64,000 nucleotides of DNA from IMG/VR virus record IMGVR_UViG_3300042402_002792, one strand, 5' to 3'. Position numbers and translations under genes: made by a program. The stretch's first letter is position 1. Each line of letters begins with the position of its first letter. Positions 30,068 to 46,457 of this stretch are shown piece by piece. This stretch comes from a virus (taxonomy: Duplodnaviria; Heunggongvirae; Uroviricota; Caudoviricetes). A model generated the notes under the pieces. The model was given only the letters and a program-made list of their open reading frames with translations. It made no database searches and was not told where the DNA came from.

Positions 30068-30092
30068 CCTTTTTTGGTTAATCAGTTATACT
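30064..30092 (+). promoter_or_regulatory. Sigma70-type promoter for gp47/gp46
   Basis: TTGACC (30064-30069), 17 bp spacer, TATACT (30087-30092); GGAG at 30101 ahead of ATG 30116. Confidence 0.7.
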
Positions 30093-30115
30093 GTTGTGCT
30101 GGAGATAACATAATA

Positions 30116-31126
30116 ATGAGTTTATTTAAAAAAGTAGCCTGTTTCACAGACATACACTTCGGACTTAAATCAAATAGTCAAACACACAATCAAGACTGCG
30201 AAGAATTTGTAGACTGGTTTATTAAGCAGGCAAAATTTCACGGCTGTGACACCGGTATGTTTTTAGGAGACTGGCATCACAATCGCAACAGTCTTAATAT
30301 TACTACTATGGATTATAGCCTTAGGGCTTTAGAAAAACTAGGAAAAGCATTTGATCAATTTTACTTCTTTCCTGGTAATCACGATTTATATTACAAAGAC
30401 AAACGTGACATCCATAGTGTAGAATTTGGCAAATACATTCCTGGTATTAACATAGTATCTAAACCAGAAACTATAGATGAAGTTACCATGTGTCCATGGT
30501 TAGTTGGCGACGAGTGGAAGTCTGTAGGCAAGAAAAACAGCAGGTATATCTTTGGTCACTTTGAATTACCGCAGTTTATGATGAATGCCATGGTACAGAT
30601 GCCAGATCACGGTGAAATTCAACTAGAACACTTTACTGGATATGAGCTAGGATTTAGCGGGCACTTCCATAAGCGCCAGCAAAAGAAGAACATGTGCTAT
30701 ATTGGTAATGCGTTTCCTCATAACTATGCAGATGCGTGGGATGACAATCGAGGTATGATGATTATGGATTGGGGTTCTGATCCCATGTATATTGATTGGC
30801 CAGGCTGTCCTAAGTTTAGAACATTAAAACTAAGCGAACTAATTGATAATGCTGATAAATTATTAACCAGTAAGATGCATCTTAGAGTAAGCTTGGATAT
30901 TGATATCAGTTACGAAGAAGCTAACTTTATCAAAGAAAACTTTATCAGTAGTTACGATATTCGAGAACTTACTCTTATACCAGAAAAGAAAGAAGTAGAA
31001 ATTAACACTGATATTGATATTAAAGCATTCGAAAGCGTAGATCAGATTGTAAGTAATCAATTAGTTAATCTACAAGTAGGATCATTTGATCCTAAAGTTC
31101 TACTTAATATCTACAATAACTTATGA
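30116..31126 (+). CDS. gp47: Recombination endonuclease subunit (Mre11/SbcD-like)
   Basis: Metallophosphoesterase motifs DIHFG, GDWHH, GNHD, GHFE, GHFH; start reassigned to MSLFKK at 30116. Confidence 0.9.
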   Translation: MSLFKKVACFTDIHFGLKSNSQTHNQDCEEFVDWFIKQAKFHGCDTGMFLGDWHHNRNSLNITTMDYSLRALEKLGKAFDQFYFFPGNHDLYYKDKRDIHSVEFGKYIPGINIVSKPETIDEVTMCPWLVGDEWKSVGKKNSRYIFGHFELPQFMMNAMVQMPDHGEIQLEHFTGYELGFSGHFHKRQQKKNMCYIGNAFPHNYADAWDDNRGMMIMDWGSDPMYIDWPGCPKFRTLKLSELIDNADKLLTSKMHLRVSLDIDISYEEANFIKENFISSYDIRELTLIPEKKEVEINTDIDIKAFESVDQIVSNQLVNLQVGSFDPKVLLNIYNNL

Positions 31127-32904
31127 GCATTAAACTAAAAGAATTAACTGTAAAAAACTTTATGAGTGTGGGTAATCAAACCCAGGCAGTAAACTTTGGC
31201 AGAGAACAACTAACTTTAGTATTAGGTGAAAATTTAGATCAAGGTGGAGATGACAGCGGAAGCCGCAATGGTACAGGTAAAACAACTATTGTTAATGCTT
31301 TAAGTTATGCTCTTTATGGTCAAGCACTGACTAATATTAAAAAAGATAACTTAATTAATAAGATTAACAATAAAAACATGTTAGTTACACTAAGTTTCGA
31401 AAGAAGCGGTACAAAATACCGTATCGAACGAGGGCGTAAACCAACTGTAATGAAATTTTTTGTTGATGATAAAGAACAATCAATTGACGATCAAGACGAT
31501 AGTCAAGGCGATTCTCGAGAAACACAAAAAGATATTGACCTATTGTTAGGCATGAGCCATACAATGTTTCAAAACATTGTAGCGTTGAATACCTATACTG
31601 TTCCTTTTCTTAGCATGAAAGCTAATGAACAGCGTGAAATTATTGAGCAGTTACTAGGTATTACTCTTTTAAGTGAAAAAGCAGAAACTTTAAAAGAACA
31701 GGTTCGTCGTACCAAAGATCAAATACAACAAGAAACTGCTGACATTGAGGCTGCTAAAAAGTCTAATGAGCGTATACAGCAAAGTATTACTGGTTTAGAA
31801 ACTAAACAGAACGCTTGGCGCAAACAACAGTCAACTGATTTAGAAAAACTAGCTAATAGTATACTAGAATTAAAAGATGTTGATATTGAAAAAGAATTAG
31901 AACAACATGCTAAACTAAAAAATTACGACGAGCTATCTGCTAAAATTAAAAGTCTTAATAAAGAAAAAGCAACACTTGAAACTGCTATTACACAAGCAGA
32001 TAAACAAGTTGACAAATATAAGAAAGCAGTTGAAGAGCTCAAAAATAATATTTGCCCCAGTTGTAAACAAGGGGTGCATACACATACACATGAAGAAATG
32101 ACTGCCGAAGCTGAAAAAAATCTAGCAGATGCATTTGTGTATTTGCAAGGAATTTCAGATAGCTATACTACTGTTGTACAAGAGTTAACCGAAATAGGCG
32201 ATATTAACGGTCGGCCTAAAACATTTTATGAGACAGTAGAGGAAGCTCTCAAGCATCAAAATAATTTAACTACCTTAGAAGCTGCACTTCTTAAACGTAG
32301 TGAAGAAACAGATCCCTATCAAGAACAAATTGACGAATTACAAAACACTGCTATTCAAGAAATTAGCTGGAATAAAATTAATGAGTTAACTGTATTAAAA
32401 GATCACGAAGAATTTTTATTAAAGTTGTTAACTAACAAAGATAGTTTTATTCGTAAAAAGATTATTGATCAAAACTTAGCCTACTTAAACAATAGGCTTA
32501 CATACTATCTTGACAAGATGGGATTACCGCATCAAGTAAGTTTCTTAAATGATTTGAATGTTGAGATTACACAATTAGGTCAAGATTTAGATTTTGATAA
32601 CCTGTCAAGAGGAGAACGTAACAGACTTATATTAGGTTTAAGCTGGGCGTTTAGAGATGTATGGGAAAGTTTATATCAAAACATCAATCTGTTGTTCATT
32701 GACGAATTAGTTGATAACGGATTAGATGCAGCTGGTGTAGAAAATGCGCTTGGAGTATTAAAAAAGATGGCTAGAGAAAGAAATAAAAACATTTATCTTA
32801 TCAGTCACAAAGACGAACTTATTGGTCGTGTTAACAATGTACTTAAAGTTATTAAAGAAAACGGATACACCAGTTACGCAAACGATATTGAAATAGAAGA
32901 ATGA
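31123..32904 (+). CDS. gp46: Recombination ATPase subunit (Rad50/SbcC-like)
   Basis: KNFMSVG, Walker A NGTGKT, coiled coil with CPSC zinc hook, LSRGE signature, LLFIDE Walker B, ISH. Confidence 0.92.
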   Translation: MSIKLKELTVKNFMSVGNQTQAVNFGREQLTLVLGENLDQGGDDSGSRNGTGKTTIVNALSYALYGQALTNIKKDNLINKINNKNMLVTLSFERSGTKYRIERGRKPTVMKFFVDDKEQSIDDQDDSQGDSRETQKDIDLLLGMSHTMFQNIVALNTYTVPFLSMKANEQREIIEQLLGITLLSEKAETLKEQVRRTKDQIQQETADIEAAKKSNERIQQSITGLETKQNAWRKQQSTDLEKLANSILELKDVDIEKELEQHAKLKNYDELSAKIKSLNKEKATLETAITQADKQVDKYKKAVEELKNNICPSCKQGVHTHTHEEMTAEAEKNLADAFVYLQGISDSYTTVVQELTEIGDINGRPKTFYETVEEALKHQNNLTTLEAALLKRSEETDPYQEQIDELQNTAIQEISWNKINELTVLKDHEEFLLKLLTNKDSFIRKKIIDQNLAYLNNRLTYYLDKMGLPHQVSFLNDLNVEITQLGQDLDFDNLSRGERNRLILGLSWAFRDVWESLYQNINLLFIDELVDNGLDAAGVENALGVLKKMARERNKNIYLISHKDELIGRVNNVLKVIKENGYTSYANDIEIEE

Positions 32905-33137
32905 CTACAAGGCATTTACACGAAGCATTGATGAAAGAGTTTCGAGCTTACTTTGAAGAAAATCAAAAGTACGAAACCTATGAGCATCATGCTAGTGGTA
33001 TTAGGCTACGCAAACACTTATACGAAATTAGGCGAATCGCACTAGAAATGCGAGAAGAAATCTTATCTACAAGAAAAATTAAACAAAAAGAGTACGCTCA
33101 AAAGAATAAGGCAACAAAGGCACAAGATAATACATAG
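32901..33137 (+). CDS. Small basic helical protein, possibly Hc1/histone H1-like DNA-binding
   Basis: ASGIRLRKHLYEIRRIALEMREEI resembles the AxxRxRK..L motif of Hc1-like proteins; ATGA overlap with gp46. Confidence 0.4.
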   Translation: MTTRHLHEALMKEFRAYFEENQKYETYEHHASGIRLRKHLYEIRRIALEMREEILSTRKIKQKEYAQKNKATKAQDNT

Positions 33138-33140
33138 TAC

Positions 33141-33584
33141 ATGCTATGGACATATCAAGATCAACAAGTAGAAGAAATACCAGAAGGCTATATTGGCTTT
33201 GTTTATTTGATTACTAATCTCACAACCGGGCAAAAGTACATAGGCAAAAAACTTGCACAATTCAAACGTACTAAACCACCACTCAAAGGCAAAAAATTAA
33301 AACGCAGAAGCACAGTAGAAAGCGATTGGCGCGATTATTGGAGCAGTTCTGATAGGCTCAATGCAGATGTCCAAACACTAGGTCCGGAAAAATTTACAAG
33401 AGAAATACTTTATTACTGCAAATCTAAGGCAGAAATGTCATATCTAGAGGCAAGAGAACAATTTGAACGTAGAGTTCTTGAAACAGATGAATACTATAAT
33501 GGTATTATCAACTGTAGAATTGGTGGTTCAAATGTACTAAGGCAACGCCTACAAGAACAATCACAGGCAAAATCAAACGGTTAA
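33141..33584 (+). CDS. GIY-YIG family nuclease (Seg-like catalytic domain only)
   Basis: GFVYLITNLTTGQKYIGKK, YWSSS, FTREIL, YLEAREQ, YYNG. Confidence 0.8.
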   Translation: MLWTYQDQQVEEIPEGYIGFVYLITNLTTGQKYIGKKLAQFKRTKPPLKGKKLKRRSTVESDWRDYWSSSDRLNADVQTLGPEKFTREILYYCKSKAEMSYLEAREQFERRVLETDEYYNGIINCRIGGSNVLRQRLQEQSQAKSNG

Positions 33585-33587
33585 AGC

Positions 33588-34018
33588 AAGCGTCAGCTAA
33601 TTTCGGACGCCCAAATCCTCGGTGATGTCGCGGGGTAAGGAAATCTCTCGCCGTTGTGAGTTTATAGCAACTATCCTTTACAGGACGATGTTCGGATATG
33701 CCTACATACAACCGGATTTGCTATACAAGAAAATTTTAAAAAGGCTAAAAGAGGGAGAAAAACCCGCGGCTATACTTGTGTTAGCGTACATTTATAGGCC
33801 TGCCGTTGTGATAAAGACTCAGCTCGTGGTACCGGACAACCGCCACTGTAATGCTGTAACGCTAGTGTGACATGTTCAACTCAGATAATGTTTCATTTTT
33901 TGCCCGCAAGGGCAAAGTGTGACTGAACAATCTAGATAATATTTAAACTGCTTCGCAGTAATAAAAGAAAACAATAGTTCGAGCGATAGCGAAGAACAGA
34001 AGAACGTAAGTTCTTCTT
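33588..34018 (+). ncRNA. Putative large structured non-coding RNA (unassigned family)
   Basis: Longest intergenic stretch; many helices including long-range TATAGCAA/TTGCTATA and TTAGCGT/ACGCTAG; GCAA- and GTAA-capped hairpins read as GNRA on the plus strand. Confidence 0.6.
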
Positions 34019-34020
34019 TA
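33998..34020 (+). terminator. Hairpin with short T tract closing the structured element
   Basis: AGAAGAAC-GTAA-GTTCTTCT followed by TT, immediately before the next late promoter. Confidence 0.45.
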
Positions 34021-34034
34021 ATAAATATAAAACT

Positions 34035-35384
34035 ATGAAAGTTTACGAAGTTCTCGAGAAAAAACAAATTAATGAAGCACTTCCTATTATTGGGGGTATT
34101 GGATTAGGTGGAATTTTGACTGCTATCTCTATTGGAATAGCAGCATGGAGTGCCTATGATGTATATAATTTTATTAAGAAATATAACGAGGATCCTGAAA
34201 AAATCACTGATGAGGAATGGGAAGAACTTTTTATAGATGCTATACTGATGTTTACTCCTGGATTTTTAAAATTAGGCAGAGCAGGTGTAGCAAAAATAGT
34301 TCCAAAAGCTGCTAAGACTAAAGGCGGCAAGTGGTTAAGAAGTAAAATTAACAAAAGATATGCAGAAGTAACTGCAAAAAGAGCTGCTAGAGGCAAATAC
34401 AGTATTAAAGGACTTACAGGCAAACAAAGAACTGAAATGTTGGCCAAACGTGCAGCAGCTTCAAAAACAGCGGCAGCGGCAGGTGCAGCAGCATTAAGTG
34501 CAAATGCCGCTGTAGCAGGATTAATCCGAACTCTTGGTCTAGGTGCAGTTATTGGAAATTATCTAATACAGATTGCAGCCATTGAAGAAGATTTTGTAGA
34601 GTTGCGAGATTCGTTGAGTTCCGGAAAAGAAGTTTCAGAAGATAACATTTTTAAAGGCATGTCATTTGAAGAAGCTAAGGAACAAGGTCAAAACTTGCGT
34701 CAAGACCTACTAGGAGAAGCAGCCCTACAAATGGTTGGACTAGGATTAGCAGGTAGAATTATAGGAGCTTTAGGTAAATTTGCAAACCTATTTGGCATTA
34801 TAGGGCAAGTGTTTGGCAGACCGTTGCAGTTTGCAGGATGGCTAGCTACTTTAGGCGGTGGTGCAAAAATGACTGCGGTAAAGACTGCTCTTACAGCATG
34901 GTTTAGCACAGAGTCAGGTCAAGAATGGCTTAAACAATTTGCAATTGGGTTAGCATTGATATCTGCAGGTCAGCTAGCTAAGTCTATACTAGGTCCTATT
35001 ATGAGTTGGTCTGCAGATATTATTGTTACACTGTTAGACGAGGCATTAGCATATATTTCAGAAAAAACAGGTATACCTTTAAGTGTACCAGATGCTGCAA
35101 AGTCGCCATTTTCACCTACATCTCCAGATCAAGCTACTAAAGATGTAGAAGATGAAAGAGCGGCAAATGTTAAATTTGTAGGGGGTGTTCCTGCTACTAC
35201 AGGTGACGGCTATCTACGAAATGATCGAGCATTTTGGCTTACGCCTAATTTAGGTATTATAGCAAGACGAAATGCAAATAATAAACCTAGTCCCTTACCT
35301 CATCCCTTACAAGGTTTACCGTTAAATCCTAAACTAACATATCCTAGCGATCTAATGGCCAAAGTTGGATTTACACCTAGTTAA
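34035..35384 (+). CDS. Hypothetical late protein with hydrophobic segments, possibly an internal head/ejection protein
   Basis: TAAATA at 34022-34027; N-terminus MKVYEVLEKKQINE-A; several Gly/Ala-rich hydrophobic helices and a basic central region. Confidence 0.5.
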   Translation: MKVYEVLEKKQINEALPIIGGIGLGGILTAISIGIAAWSAYDVYNFIKKYNEDPEKITDEEWEELFIDAILMFTPGFLKLGRAGVAKIVPKAAKTKGGKWLRSKINKRYAEVTAKRAARGKYSIKGLTGKQRTEMLAKRAAASKTAAAAGAAALSANAAVAGLIRTLGLGAVIGNYLIQIAAIEEDFVELRDSLSSGKEVSEDNIFKGMSFEEAKEQGQNLRQDLLGEAALQMVGLGLAGRIIGALGKFANLFGIIGQVFGRPLQFAGWLATLGGGAKMTAVKTALTAWFSTESGQEWLKQFAIGLALISAGQLAKSILGPIMSWSADIIVTLLDEALAYISEKTGIPLSVPDAAKSPFSPTSPDQATKDVEDERAANVKFVGGVPATTGDGYLRNDRAFWLTPNLGIIARRNANNKPSPLPHPLQGLPLNPKLTYPSDLMAKVGFTPS

Positions 35385-45940: not shown

Positions 45941-46034
45941 TAAATACTATGTCTAAAAATAGAGCCTGTTTTATACAGGACTTATGCAGAATCCCTCTGC
46001 GTAGACCTAGAACGTCATATTAAGGAGAAACCAA
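45941..46034 (+). promoter_or_regulatory. Late promoter plus structured 5' leader
   Basis: TAAATA 45941-45946; hairpins CCTGT-TTTAT-ACAGG and TATGCAGA-ATCCC-TCTGCGTA; SD AAGGAG. Confidence 0.6.
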
Positions 46035-46457
46035 ATGGGACGTCCATTATTTAAAGATGTAAACGGTGTTAAAGCTACACGTTCATACACAACAACACAA
46101 GCCGGTATTAAAGTAGAAGGTTATTTCGGCGGATCATTAGCTACAGATTATCAAATTGTCAAACAGCGCGGAGCAAGAACTTTTGTAGTTTTAAGCACTG
46201 CTACTGACGAATTTACTGAAGCAGAAAGCATCTCTGGTATCACAGCTTCAAACTTGCAAGTAGGAACAACAGTAGCTGATCAACCAGCTGCTGACGGTGA
46301 AATTCGTATCCTCGGATCTACAACTGGTCAAACTCCAGGTACTACTGCTATTAAAAAATTAACTCGTAGACTGGCATACGACTTTAGCGACAACAAATAT
46401 ACTTGGTATATTGACAATGATTCTTCAGGTGATGTATTAGTATTAACAGCAGTCTAA
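46035..46457 (+). CDS. Hypothetical virion protein (possible head decoration)
   Basis: Own late promoter and strong SD right after gp23; MGRPL...IVKQRG. Confidence 0.55.
   Translation: MGRPLFKDVNGVKATRSYTTTQAGIKVEGYFGGSLATDYQIVKQRGARTFVVLSTATDEFTEAESISGITASNLQVGTTVADQPAADGEIRILGSTTGQTPGTTAIKKLTRRLAYDFSDNKYTWYIDNDSSGDVLVLTAV

What the first reader, a model, noticed from the sequence alone, without database searches (positions are those of the whole stretch)
33141..34020. Minimal GIY-YIG nuclease directly followed by a ~430-nt highly structured non-coding element: candidate nuclease-RNA system
Seen: in an otherwise gene-dense genome, 450 nt without a credible ORF begin at the stop codon of a 147-aa GIY-YIG protein and are visibly GC-richer than their surroundings. 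Pairings read by eye: GCGTC(33590)/GACGC(33606); TGAGTT(33657)/GACTCA(33816); TATAGCAA(33663)/TTGCTATA(33718) enclosing TCCT-TTAC-AGGA and TATG-CCTA-CATA; GTGG..CGG-ACAA-CCG-CCAC (33826-33846); a pseudoknot-like TTAGCGT(33781)/ACGCTAG(33859); TTTGCCC-GCAA-GGGCAAA (33899-33916); AGAAGAAC-GTAA-GTTCTTCT (33998-34017). GCCGTTGTGA occurs twice (33650, 33802). Known: Seg/I-TevI-type GIY-YIG homing enzymes usually carry an extra DNA-binding region, and this one appears to be little more than the catalytic domain. Inference: the RNA could be a partner or specificity subunit of the nuclease (by analogy with IscB-omegaRNA), a new ribozyme-sized ncRNA, or a replication/packaging signal. I could not match it to a family I know.
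Basis: partly seen in the sequence, partly recalled or inferred. Interest (0 to 1): 0.85.

Follow-up and report, generated by a model that had tools for sequence, protein, structure and literature searches.

The report
Full-length Polynucleobacter-1 phage RNA
The gene-free gap behind a small nuclease gene of this T4-like freshwater phage holds a real, about 435-base, doubly knotted non-coding RNA; its first third is the catalogued orphan motif Polynucleobacter-1, it does not depend on the nuclease, and its function is still unknown.

Summary
Window 33585-34020 (+) is a conserved, heavily base-paired non-coding RNA that starts right after the stop codon of a 147-aa SegE-type GIY-YIG gene. It is not unmatched: 33585-33726 is a full-length hit to Rfam RF01718, Polynucleobacter-1 RNA (74.6 bits, cut-off 37). 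Weinberg et al. 2010 already reported that motif downstream of one phage-like gene family. The remaining 300 nt match no Rfam family but are homologous in more than 200 loci. On 37 sequences, 96.9% of cells pair, against 32-44% in slid controls, and 37 of 68 pairs show compensatory changes, including two pseudoknots.

The nuclease-partner reading is not supported. In the same slot, three loci carry a PD-(D/E)XK nuclease instead of GIY-YIG, and about ten have extra genes between nuclease and RNA. In six loci (about four contexts) no GIY-YIG or PD-(D/E)XK gene lies within about 2 kb upstream; one of these has its own perfect sigma-70 promoter. The 5' motif also occurs in 18 of 151 Polynucleobacter genomes, there beside DUF6641. 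More distant small GIY-YIG homologues have no such RNA.

The best reading is an autonomous, trans-acting RNA gene of mobile elements. One 7-nt word occurs twice and changes in step across the family, and I found no reader for it. This scan has reported the same RNA in at least 18 other genomes.

The parts
30074..31126 (+). gp47-like Mre11/SbcD phosphoesterase, first gene of the run of abutting genes that ends with the RNA
   Evidence: PF00149 Metallophos, E 1.7e-5. Syntenic in nearly all related loci.
31123..32904 (+). gp46-like Rad50/SbcC ATPase
   Evidence: AAA_23 at 6.9e-16 and SMC_N. Its start overlaps the gp47 stop.
32901..33137 (+). Conserved 78-aa protein of unknown function
   Evidence: No family match. 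Homologues sit in the same place in related loci.
33141..33584 (+). Minimal SegE-type GIY-YIG nuclease, 147 aa, catalytic domain only
   Evidence: PF19835 at 2.7e-35 over residues 3-123, and phrog_447 at 9e-39. The model has pLDDT 83.5 and its nearest fold is the I-TevI catalytic domain, a weak match. dN/dS is about 0.1.
33585..34020 (+). Full-length structured non-coding RNA (extended Polynucleobacter-1 RNA), about 435 nt
   Evidence: Homologous end to end in more than 200 loci. 68 tested pairs are 96.9% paired and 37 are compensated.
33585..33726 (+). 5' domain, a match to Rfam RF01718 Polynucleobacter-1
   Evidence: 74.6 bits against a gathering score of 37, model positions 1-141 of 141, E 5.8e-14.
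33590..33610 (+). P1 hairpin GCGTC/GACGC
   Evidence: 99.5% paired; 3 of 5 pairs change on both sides.
33665..33723 (+). Junction stem 33665-33670/33718-33723 enclosing the TCC/GGA hairpin and hairpin 33690-33695/33712-33717
   Evidence: 90.5% and 93.2% paired, with 3 and 4 compensated pairs.
33770..33797 (+). 10-bp hairpin whose loop forms pseudoknot 1
   Evidence: All 10 pairs change on both sides, with 3-6 pair types each.
33781..33866 (+). Pseudoknot 1: loop TTAGCGT (33781-33787) pairs with ACGCTAG (33859-33866)
   Evidence: 98.8% paired. Two adjacent pairs switch together (GC:22/AU:15 and UA:22/GC:15). In L385 the partners are fully replaced by CTGATATT/AATATCAG.
33805..33840 (+). Pseudoknot 2: GTTGT (33805-33809) pairs with ACAAC (33836-33840), which lies in the loop of hairpin 33826-33830/33842-33846
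   Evidence: 99.5% paired, with CG:19/UA:18 and GC:20/AU:15.
33820..33856 (+). Stem CAGC/GCTG closing the middle domain
   Evidence: 100% paired; 3 of 4 pairs compensated.
33865..33889 (+). Twin unit A: GTGTGAC, then ACTC and the 7-nt word AGATAAT (33883-33889)
   Evidence: The word is identical to that of unit B in 206-215 family members, with 21 different words across the family.
33898..33917 (+). Hairpin TTTTGCCC-GCAA-GGGCAAAG between the twin units
   Evidence: 98.6% paired.
33917..33940 (+). Twin unit B: GTGTGAC, then ATCT and the 7-nt word AGATAAT (33934-33940)
33947..33959 (+). Hairpin ACTGC-TTC-GCAGT
   Evidence: All 37 sequences form a 4-7-bp stem here, with at least 12 different stem sequences.
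33977..33997 (+). Hairpin GTTC-GAGCGATAGCGAA-GAAC
   Evidence: Stems GTTC/GAAC, TGCGTT/AACGCA and TGTGTC/GACACA occur in relatives.
33998..34017 (+). Terminal hairpin AGAAGAAC-GTAA-GTTCTTCT followed by TTT, the likely 3' end or terminator
   Evidence: 97.3% paired; 4 of 7 pairs compensated. The consensus terminator scan did not call it.
34021..34027 (+). ATAAATA, a T4-type late-promoter-like box for the next gene
   Evidence: Conserved as AATAAATA in most aligned loci. Its function is inferred.
34035..35384 (+). Hypervariable downstream gene (449 aa); not part of the RNA
   Evidence: No family match. Homologous only in L002. Its length ranges from 188 to 707 aa elsewhere.
33622..33870 (+). 82-aa GTG ORF inside the RNA; not a gene
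   Evidence: No family match. It is not conserved in relatives and overlaps covarying helices.

Best explanation
Window 33585-34020 is a stand-alone gene for a large, stably folded non-coding RNA. It is a full-length member of the family whose 5' third Rfam lists as Polynucleobacter-1 (RF01718).

In this T4-like phage the RNA is the last element of the gp47, gp46, 78-aa, GIY-YIG gene run. It begins at the nuclease stop codon and ends in a hairpin followed by a T run, just before the late-promoter-like box of the next gene. It is therefore probably made as the 3' end of that mRNA and then trimmed out.

It folds into three domains:
- the catalogued multi-stem 5' junction;
- a middle domain locked by two pseudoknots;
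- a 3' domain with two copies of one 7-nt word flanking a hairpin.

It most likely acts in trans. Its invariant unpaired boxes would bind a duplicated or dimeric partner from the host or the phage. It is not a guide or subunit of the GIY-YIG enzyme.

The neighbouring nuclease is a separate, selectively maintained small nuclease in a slot that accepts different nuclease genes. The adjacency reflects shared ancestry of this gene order and perhaps nuclease genes settling beside a conserved target.

Shown: the family match, the structure, the strand, the conservation and the independence from the nuclease. Inferred: co-transcription and processing, action in trans, and the nature of the partner.
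For: - Family: the RF01718 hit is full length at 74.6 bits. The 2010 description places the motif downstream of one phage-like gene family and notes a variable 3' half.
- Extent: the whole gap is homologous directly after the GIY gene in about 50 of 80 loci, and again in loci found by RNA motifs alone.
- Structure: 96.9% of cells pair against 32-44% in slid controls. The covariation score is 0.437 against 0.03-0.08. 37 of 68 pairs are compensated, and 0 of 500 shuffles reach the observed values. Both pseudoknots covary.
- Strand: U-G/U-A alternation fits the + strand only.
- Independence from GIY-YIG:
  - a PD-(D/E)XK nuclease (PF24608, E 1e-22 to 1e-26) replaces GIY in L272, L321 and L350;
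  - inserted ORFs separate GIY from the RNA in about 10 loci;
  - the RNA matches over most or all of its length with no GIY-YIG or PD-(D/E)XK gene within about 2 kb upstream in L287, L302/L324, L320/L363 and L385;
  - L385 has TTGACA-17-TATAAT about 30 nt before the RNA and a hairpin at its end;
  - RF01718 scores over its cut-off in 18 of 151 Polynucleobacter genomes, always beside DUF6641 and not a nuclease;
  - GIY homologues at 56% identity or less, and Melnitz, have no such gap or RNA.
- Twin word: it is identical in both units, with 21 variants in 215 sequences.
Against: - No transcript data exist for this phage, so processing and action in trans are inferred.
- Within the T4-like clade, almost every locus with enough upstream sequence has a nuclease gene upstream of the RNA: about 194 have GIY directly adjacent, about 10 have GIY with an inserted ORF, and 3 have PD-(D/E)XK. 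A functional link inside this clade is therefore not excluded.
- GIY is more conserved than gp46 and gp47 and has unsaturated synonymous sites (pS 0.40-0.57 against 0.75-0.88). I cannot explain this. The first 80 loci were chosen by GIY similarity, which biases the comparison.
- A 99%-identical contig (L002) lacks 66 nt, including pseudoknot 1's 3' strand and twin unit A. The RNA may therefore be dispensable, or that copy may be defective.
- No partner for the twin word was found.
Confidence: 0.6

Rival explanations
1. Nuclease-RNA system: the RNA is a partner, scaffold or specificity subunit for the adjacent minimal nuclease, which lacks a DNA-binding domain of its own.
For: - The protein is a catalytic domain only: Pfam covers residues 3-123 of 147.
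- The RNA starts 0-10 nt after the stop codon.
- In the T4-like clade a nuclease gene precedes the RNA in almost every locus with enough upstream sequence.
- When GIY is missing from the slot, another small nuclease takes its place.
Against: - The RNA matches over most or all of its length with no GIY-YIG or PD-(D/E)XK gene upstream in about four other contexts, one with its own promoter.
- It occurs in 18 of 151 Polynucleobacter genomes beside DUF6641.
- Genes are inserted between GIY and the RNA in about 10 loci.
- Same-sized GIY homologues work without it in Melnitz and in many other contigs.
- I saw no hypervariable guide-like segment flanked by a constant scaffold, apart from an A-rich linker of variable length.
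- RNA divergence tracks GIY divergence only weakly (Spearman 0.42).
Confidence: 0.07
2. Homing-endonuclease hotspot: the RNA gene is a conserved target beside which free-standing homing-type nuclease genes (GIY-YIG, PD-(D/E)XK, HNH) settle, as T4 SegB does in the tRNA cluster. This explains the adjacency and is compatible with the RNA being autonomous.
For: - Three unrelated nuclease families occur at or near this slot. L272 has an HNH-NUMOD3 gene (phrog_655, 2.7e-46) and a PD-(D/E)XK gene.
- In L370 a GIY-like gene lies on the other side of the RNA.
- The slot lies at the boundary between the conserved gp46/47 block and a hypervariable gene, where many contigs end.
- GIY has lower synonymous divergence than its neighbours.
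Against: - GIY is nearly universal in the clade rather than sporadic, and no empty site was seen among about 200 loci.
- GIY distances track gp46 distances (Spearman 0.73), which points to mainly vertical descent.
- dN/dS of about 0.1 over deep divergence shows a maintained function.
- The protein has no DNA-binding domain for site recognition.
- The alternative, a structure-specific repair nuclease with non-orthologous displacement, could not be settled. EndoVII and PDDEXK_15 were not found in four incomplete contigs.
Confidence: 0.2
3. DNA-level element: a replication origin or R-loop primer, or a packaging signal.
For: - It lies next to recombination genes.
- It contains an A/T-rich linker of variable length (33960-33976).
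- It occurs in several kinds of mobile element.
Against: - The compensatory changes preserve RNA-type pairs, including G-U on one strand only, and two pseudoknots.
- A promoter and a terminal hairpin bracket exactly the conserved unit in L385.
- A near-identical phage contig carries a 66-nt internal deletion.
- Composition shows no skew switch here.
Confidence: 0.06
4. Cis-regulatory element: a 3' UTR stabiliser of the gp47-gp46-GIY mRNA, or a leader for the downstream gene.
For: - It sits at the 3' end of an operon-like gene run.
- Weinberg et al. listed the motif as possibly cis-regulatory.
Against: - A length of 435 nt with two pseudoknots and invariant unpaired boxes is far more than a 3' end stabiliser would need.
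- The next gene has its own late-promoter-like box after the RNA.
- In L385 the downstream gene is convergent, and the upstream neighbours differ between contexts.
Confidence: 0.07

Closest known systems
Polynucleobacter-1 RNA motif (Rfam RF01718; Weinberg et al. 2010, Genome Biol 11:R31, PMC2864571)
   Same: Window 33585-33726 matches all 141 model positions at twice the gathering score, on the same strand, with the same helices. The location downstream of one phage-like gene family was already reported, as was a 3' half that is not always detected. The authors' raw alignment already carries a 'tail' with a pseudoknot.
   Different: The Rfam model stops after the first third. Here the conserved unit is about 435 nt, with a middle domain, two covarying pseudoknots and a twin-word 3' domain. 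Marine relatives keep the 3' domain but carry a 5' domain that RF01718 does not detect. The 2010 paper found no copy in any purified phage, whereas here it sits in a fixed slot of T4-like phage genomes. The function was unknown then and remains unknown.
   Same: A large structured RNA is encoded immediately next to a small nuclease gene.
   Different: Co-occurrence is not obligate, the nuclease fold is interchangeable, I saw no guide-like variable segment, and the RNA also occurs with unrelated neighbours.
Large orphan structured RNAs of phages and mobile elements (GOLLD, ROOL)
   Same: This is a complex-folded RNA several hundred nt long, carried by phages and chromosomal islands, with unknown function. 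This comparison rests on my own knowledge of those RNAs.
   Different: There is no sequence or model match to them: cmscan of the region at E up to 10 gives only RF01718. This RNA is also smaller. Multimerisation was not tested.
T4 Seg-type free-standing GIY-YIG endonucleases and I-TevI
   Same: The catalytic domain family matches (PF19835, 2.7e-35), and the nearest solved fold is the I-TevI catalytic domain.
   Different: The protein has no C-terminal DNA-binding region, is nearly universal and mostly vertically inherited in its clade, and is under strong purifying selection.

Membership tests
Rfam RF01718 Polynucleobacter-1 RNA | Covariance-model score at or above the curated gathering score | tested here: met
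   74.6 bits against 37; E 5.8e-14 over the whole window.
Rfam RF01718 Polynucleobacter-1 RNA | Full-length match with the consensus helices | tested here: met
   Model positions 1-141 of 141 with no truncation. P1, the junction stem and the inner hairpins covary in 37 homologues.
Rfam RF01718 Polynucleobacter-1 RNA | Location downstream of the GOS11034 / PSSM2_218-like gene family, as reported in 2010 | tested here: inconclusive
   The RNA follows one conserved gene, the small GIY-YIG gene, in about 194 loci. I could not retrieve GOS11034 or PSSM2_218 to show that they are this family.
SegE-type GIY-YIG nuclease (PF19835) | Profile match over the catalytic domain, with the GIY and YIG motifs | tested here: met
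   E 2.7e-35 over residues 3-123. GFVY and KYIG are invariant in 9 diverse homologues.
SegE-type GIY-YIG nuclease (PF19835) | GIY-YIG fold | tested here: inconclusive
   The model has pLDDT 83.5. The top PDB hits are the I-TevI catalytic domain and a GIY-YIG restriction enzyme, but only at Foldseek E 0.3-0.6.
Seg/I-TevI-type homing endonuclease | A separate C-terminal DNA-binding region | tested here: not met
   Only 24 residues follow the catalytic domain, and no further Pfam, NCBIfam or PHROG domain was found.
Seg/I-TevI-type homing endonuclease | Sporadic presence or absence among close relatives | tested here: not met
   The gene is present in essentially all clade members sampled, and its distances correlate with those of gp46 (Spearman 0.73).
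RNA-guided nuclease system (IscB/TnpB-like) | Obligate co-occurrence of the RNA and its nuclease | tested here: not met
   The RNA occurs without GIY in L272, L321, L350, L287, L302, L320, L363 and L385 and in Polynucleobacter chromosomes. GIY occurs without the RNA in Melnitz and in L130-L158.
RNA-guided nuclease system (IscB/TnpB-like) | A variable guide segment attached to a constant scaffold | tested here: not met
   The only hypervariable stretch is an A-rich linker of 0-50 nt. The twin word varies, but it is duplicated and internal.
Group I intron carrying a GIY-YIG gene | Match to an intron model, and a split host gene | tested here: not met
   No intron family matches at E up to 10. 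The flanking ORFs are complete and unrelated to each other.

The most novel reading that the evidence does not exclude
The RNA could be a nuclease-agnostic specificity or scaffold RNA. In T4-like phages it would work with whichever small nuclease occupies the upstream slot (GIY-YIG or PD-(D/E)XK), and elsewhere with partners encoded at a distance. The twin 7-nt words would present or read a duplicated target. This would be the first RNA-directed GIY-YIG or PD-(D/E)XK phage nuclease.
Probability: 0.06. Interest if true: 0.9.

Novelty: new variant of a known kind. Interest (0 to 1): 0.4.

Why it matters
Complex-folded RNAs of several hundred bases are rare, and the ones that have been solved turned out to be ribozymes or cores of ribonucleoprotein machines.

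This one is abundant in freshwater and marine T4-like phages and also sits in Polynucleobacter chromosomes. Only a third of it is catalogued, and it has had no known function since 2010.

This work provides three things needed for a proper Rfam model and for experiments:
- the full unit, defined by its two pseudoknots and its twin word;
- evidence that it does not depend on the neighbouring nuclease;
- a list of its alternative neighbours.

It also corrects a tempting but unsupported reading as a new RNA-guided nuclease.

Tried and rejected
- **Other RNA families.** The window contains no tRNA or tmRNA. Apart from RF01718, Rfam gives only chance-level hits in the gap. It gives nothing for the 5' domain of marine relatives.
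- **Solved structures.** A sequence search of the PDB with the GIY protein found nothing.
- **Own genome.** The window's own assembly is not held, so copy number could only be checked in related contigs, which have one copy each.
- **Retracted idea.** I first thought the GIY ORF reads into the RNA in some loci. This was an artefact of how I searched for the stop codon, and I withdrew it.
- **Helices not supported.** The long-range helix TGAGTT/GACTCA fails. The helix TGTTCA/TGAACA between the twin units holds in the window but in no register across 215 sequences.
- **Twin-word partner.** A mutual-information scan for a Watson-Crick partner returned only clade-level signal.
- **Resolvase-displacement idea.** EndoVII and PDDEXK_15 were not found in four related contigs. 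Those contigs are only 37-76% complete and the control genomes did not score either, so this is uninformative.
- **DUF6641 as a shared partner.** It was not found in the phage contigs.
- **Defence models.** PADLOC gave only weak homing-endonuclease hits for GIY.
- **Promoters and terminators.** The consensus scan found no promoter in front of the RNA in the window and did not call the terminal hairpin a terminator.
- **Literature.** I found no paper on this RNA other than Weinberg 2010.
Full report
**Setting**

The window comes from a T4-like phage. gp47-like (30074-31126) and gp46-like (31123-32904) genes are followed by a 78-aa ORF and a 147-aa ORF, all abutting or overlapping. The nearest isolates at DNA level are the Methylophilales Melnitz phages (Kyanoviridae). 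The nearest uncultured record shares 32% of sampled words with the window.

**The observation**

The 147-aa protein matches PF19835 SegE_GIY-YIG (E 2.7e-35, residues 3-123) and phrog_447. Only 24 residues follow the catalytic domain. An AlphaFold model (pLDDT 83.5) is closest to the I-TevI catalytic domain, but the match is weak.

From the stop codon at 33582-33584 to the ATG at 34035 there is no conserved ORF. GC rises to 0.42-0.44 there, from 0.31-0.36 in the flanks.

**A described family**

cmscan places a full-length RF01718 Polynucleobacter-1 RNA at 33585-33726 on the + strand, at 74.6 bits against a gathering score of 37. Nothing else in the gap reaches even E = 0.1.

The supplement of Weinberg et al. 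2010 says three things (PMC2864571):
- most copies lie downstream of genes of family GOS11034, with possible homology to a cyanophage P-SSM2 gene;
- the 3' half is not always detected;
- no copy was found in a purified phage.

Their raw alignment already carries a 'tail' with a pseudoknot. So both the motif and its link to one upstream gene family have been known since 2010, and the function has not.

**Extent and structure**

A protein-based scan of viral contigs found at least 597 stretches that encode a relative of the GIY protein. Among the best 80, about 50 contain the entire 450-nt gap directly after the gene.

I aligned 37 dereplicated full-length copies (A1) and tested 12 helices (68 pairs):
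- 96.9% of cells form standard pairs, against 32-44% when partners are slid by 1-3 columns.
- 37 pairs change on both sides.
- The covariation score is 0.437, against 0.03-0.08 in the slid controls.
- No shuffle out of 500 reaches the observed values.

Two pseudoknots are supported:
- Loop 33781-33787 pairs with 33859-33866. Two adjacent pairs switch together in 15 of 37 sequences, and the partners are fully rewritten in L385.
- 33805-33809 pairs with 33836-33840.

Two further hairpins (33947-33959 and 33977-33997) form in all or most sequences with many different stems. U-G/U-A alternation fixes the + strand.

- TGAGTT/GACTCA does not hold across the alignment.
- The inner CGG/CCG hairpin is better read as pseudoknot 2.

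**Breadth of the family**

Marine relatives (GIY about 75% identical) keep an ORF-free gap of 450-550 nt. They keep the 3' domain and a recognisably related middle domain, but their 5' domain is one that RF01718 does not detect.

**Is the RNA tied to the nuclease?**

Within the T4-like clade the link is almost complete:
- the twin-box motif scan gave 33 of 33 informative loci with GIY upstream;
- the 3'-domain motif scan gave 74 of 79;
- the middle-domain scan of metagenomes gave 87 of about 105.

The exceptions are the informative cases:
- L272, L321 and L350 have no GIY gene. The slot directly upstream of a full RNA holds a 170-173-aa PD-(D/E)XK endonuclease instead (PF24608, E 1e-22 to 1e-26).
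- L272 also has an HNH-NUMOD3 homing endonuclease after gp46.
- About ten loci have a 145-324-aa ORF, or a nucleotidase gene, inserted between GIY and the RNA.
- L287, L302/L324, L320/L363 and L385 hold the RNA, over most or all of its length, among unrelated genes. These include DUF7788, metallophosphoesterase, an Rv2179c-like exoribonuclease and an aminotransferase. No GIY-YIG or PD-(D/E)XK gene lies within about 2 kb upstream.
- In L385 a perfect TTGACA-17-TATAAT promoter sits about 30 nt before the RNA, and a hairpin ends it against a convergent gene.

RF01718 also scores over its cut-off in 18 of 151 genomes of the genus of G006 (Polynucleobacter), at 83-104 bits, sometimes twice per genome. 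Every copy I examined faces a divergently transcribed DUF6641 gene. In four loci a catalytic-domain-only tyrosine recombinase follows the RNA.

Conversely, GIY homologues of the same size at 56% identity or less, and the 65%-identical Melnitz homologue, are followed directly by other genes, or by a short gap without the RNA.

The protein family works without the RNA, and the RNA is kept without the protein.

**The nuclease itself**

dN/dS against the window copy is about 0.1. Synonymous sites are unsaturated (pS 0.40-0.57), while gp46 and gp47 are saturated. GIY distances track gp46 distances (Spearman 0.73), whereas RNA distances track either only weakly (0.37-0.42).

The gene is therefore mostly inherited vertically and kept under selection. 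This fits a working enzyme better than a decaying selfish one.

The occurrence of three nuclease families at this boundary, next to a hypervariable downstream gene where many contigs break, fits a nuclease hotspot. I could not decide between a homing role and a structure-specific repair role. One caveat applies: the first 80 loci were ranked by GIY similarity, which inflates GIY identity relative to its neighbours.

**The twin word**

In the 3' domain, ACTC+AGATAAT (33879-33889) and ATCT+AGATAAT (33930-33940) flank a hairpin. Among 215 distinct family members, 21 different 7-nt words occur, including quite different ones in the bacterial copies. The two copies are identical, apart from about four single-base near-misses, while ACTC and ATCT stay distinct.

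I found no complementary partner and no consistent helix between the units.

A 99%-identical contig (L002) has an exact 66-nt deletion (33856-33921). It removes pseudoknot 1's 3' strand, unit A and the hairpin.

**Earlier notes of this scan**

Twenty findings in at least 18 other genomes describe the same RNA. The follow-up reports shown reach the same reading, and they likewise could not explain the twin word. My analysis was done before I read them and agrees with them.

A first-stage note on this window proposed that the two units pair through TGTTCA/TGAACA. That helix does not hold across the family.

**Verdict**

It belongs to a described orphan family, and it is not a nuclease-RNA system on present evidence.

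What goes beyond the catalogue:
- the full 435-nt architecture;
- its fixed place in T4-like phage genomes;
- its alternative neighbours;
- the twin word.

Noticed in passing
window 45964-46037 (+): A second catalogued orphan RNA: RF02980 freshwater-2 RNA, 62.3 bits against a gathering score of 49.9.
   Followed up: no
L401-L407, L398; genomes G028, G032, G045, G119, G130: In Polynucleobacter chromosomes (18 of 151 genomes), and in a Haliscomenobacter MAG contig, the RF01718 RNA always faces a divergently transcribed DUF6641 gene (PF20346) 140-350 nt away. In four loci a catalytic-domain-only tyrosine recombinase of about 188 aa follows on the RNA's strand. This may be an island module.
   Followed up: partly
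L272:8213-12774: A nuclease pile-up. The gp46 ORF is 975 aa instead of about 590 (an insert, perhaps an intein). An HNH-NUMOD3 homing endonuclease and then a PD-(D/E)XK nuclease follow, upstream of the RNA.
   Followed up: partly
L002:3444-3828 compared with window 33856-33921: A 99%-identical phage contig has an exact 66-nt deletion that removes pseudoknot 1's 3' strand, twin unit A and the central hairpin.
   Followed up: partly
window 34035-35384 and the equivalent genes in related loci: The gene after the RNA is hypervariable in length (188-707 aa) and sequence, but it begins with a similar MK(V/I)x(E/Q/D)(I/V/L) N-terminus in freshwater and marine clades. Many metagenomic contigs end in or just after the RNA.
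   Followed up: partly
window 33141-33584: The GIY-YIG gene has clearly lower synonymous divergence (pS 0.40-0.57) than the adjacent gp46 and gp47 genes (0.75-0.88). This is unexplained.
   Followed up: partly
GenBank phage records hit: Small GIY-YIG proteins of this family are widely labelled 'NAD synthetase'. The label apparently comes from phrog_447 and looks like an annotation error.
   Followed up: no
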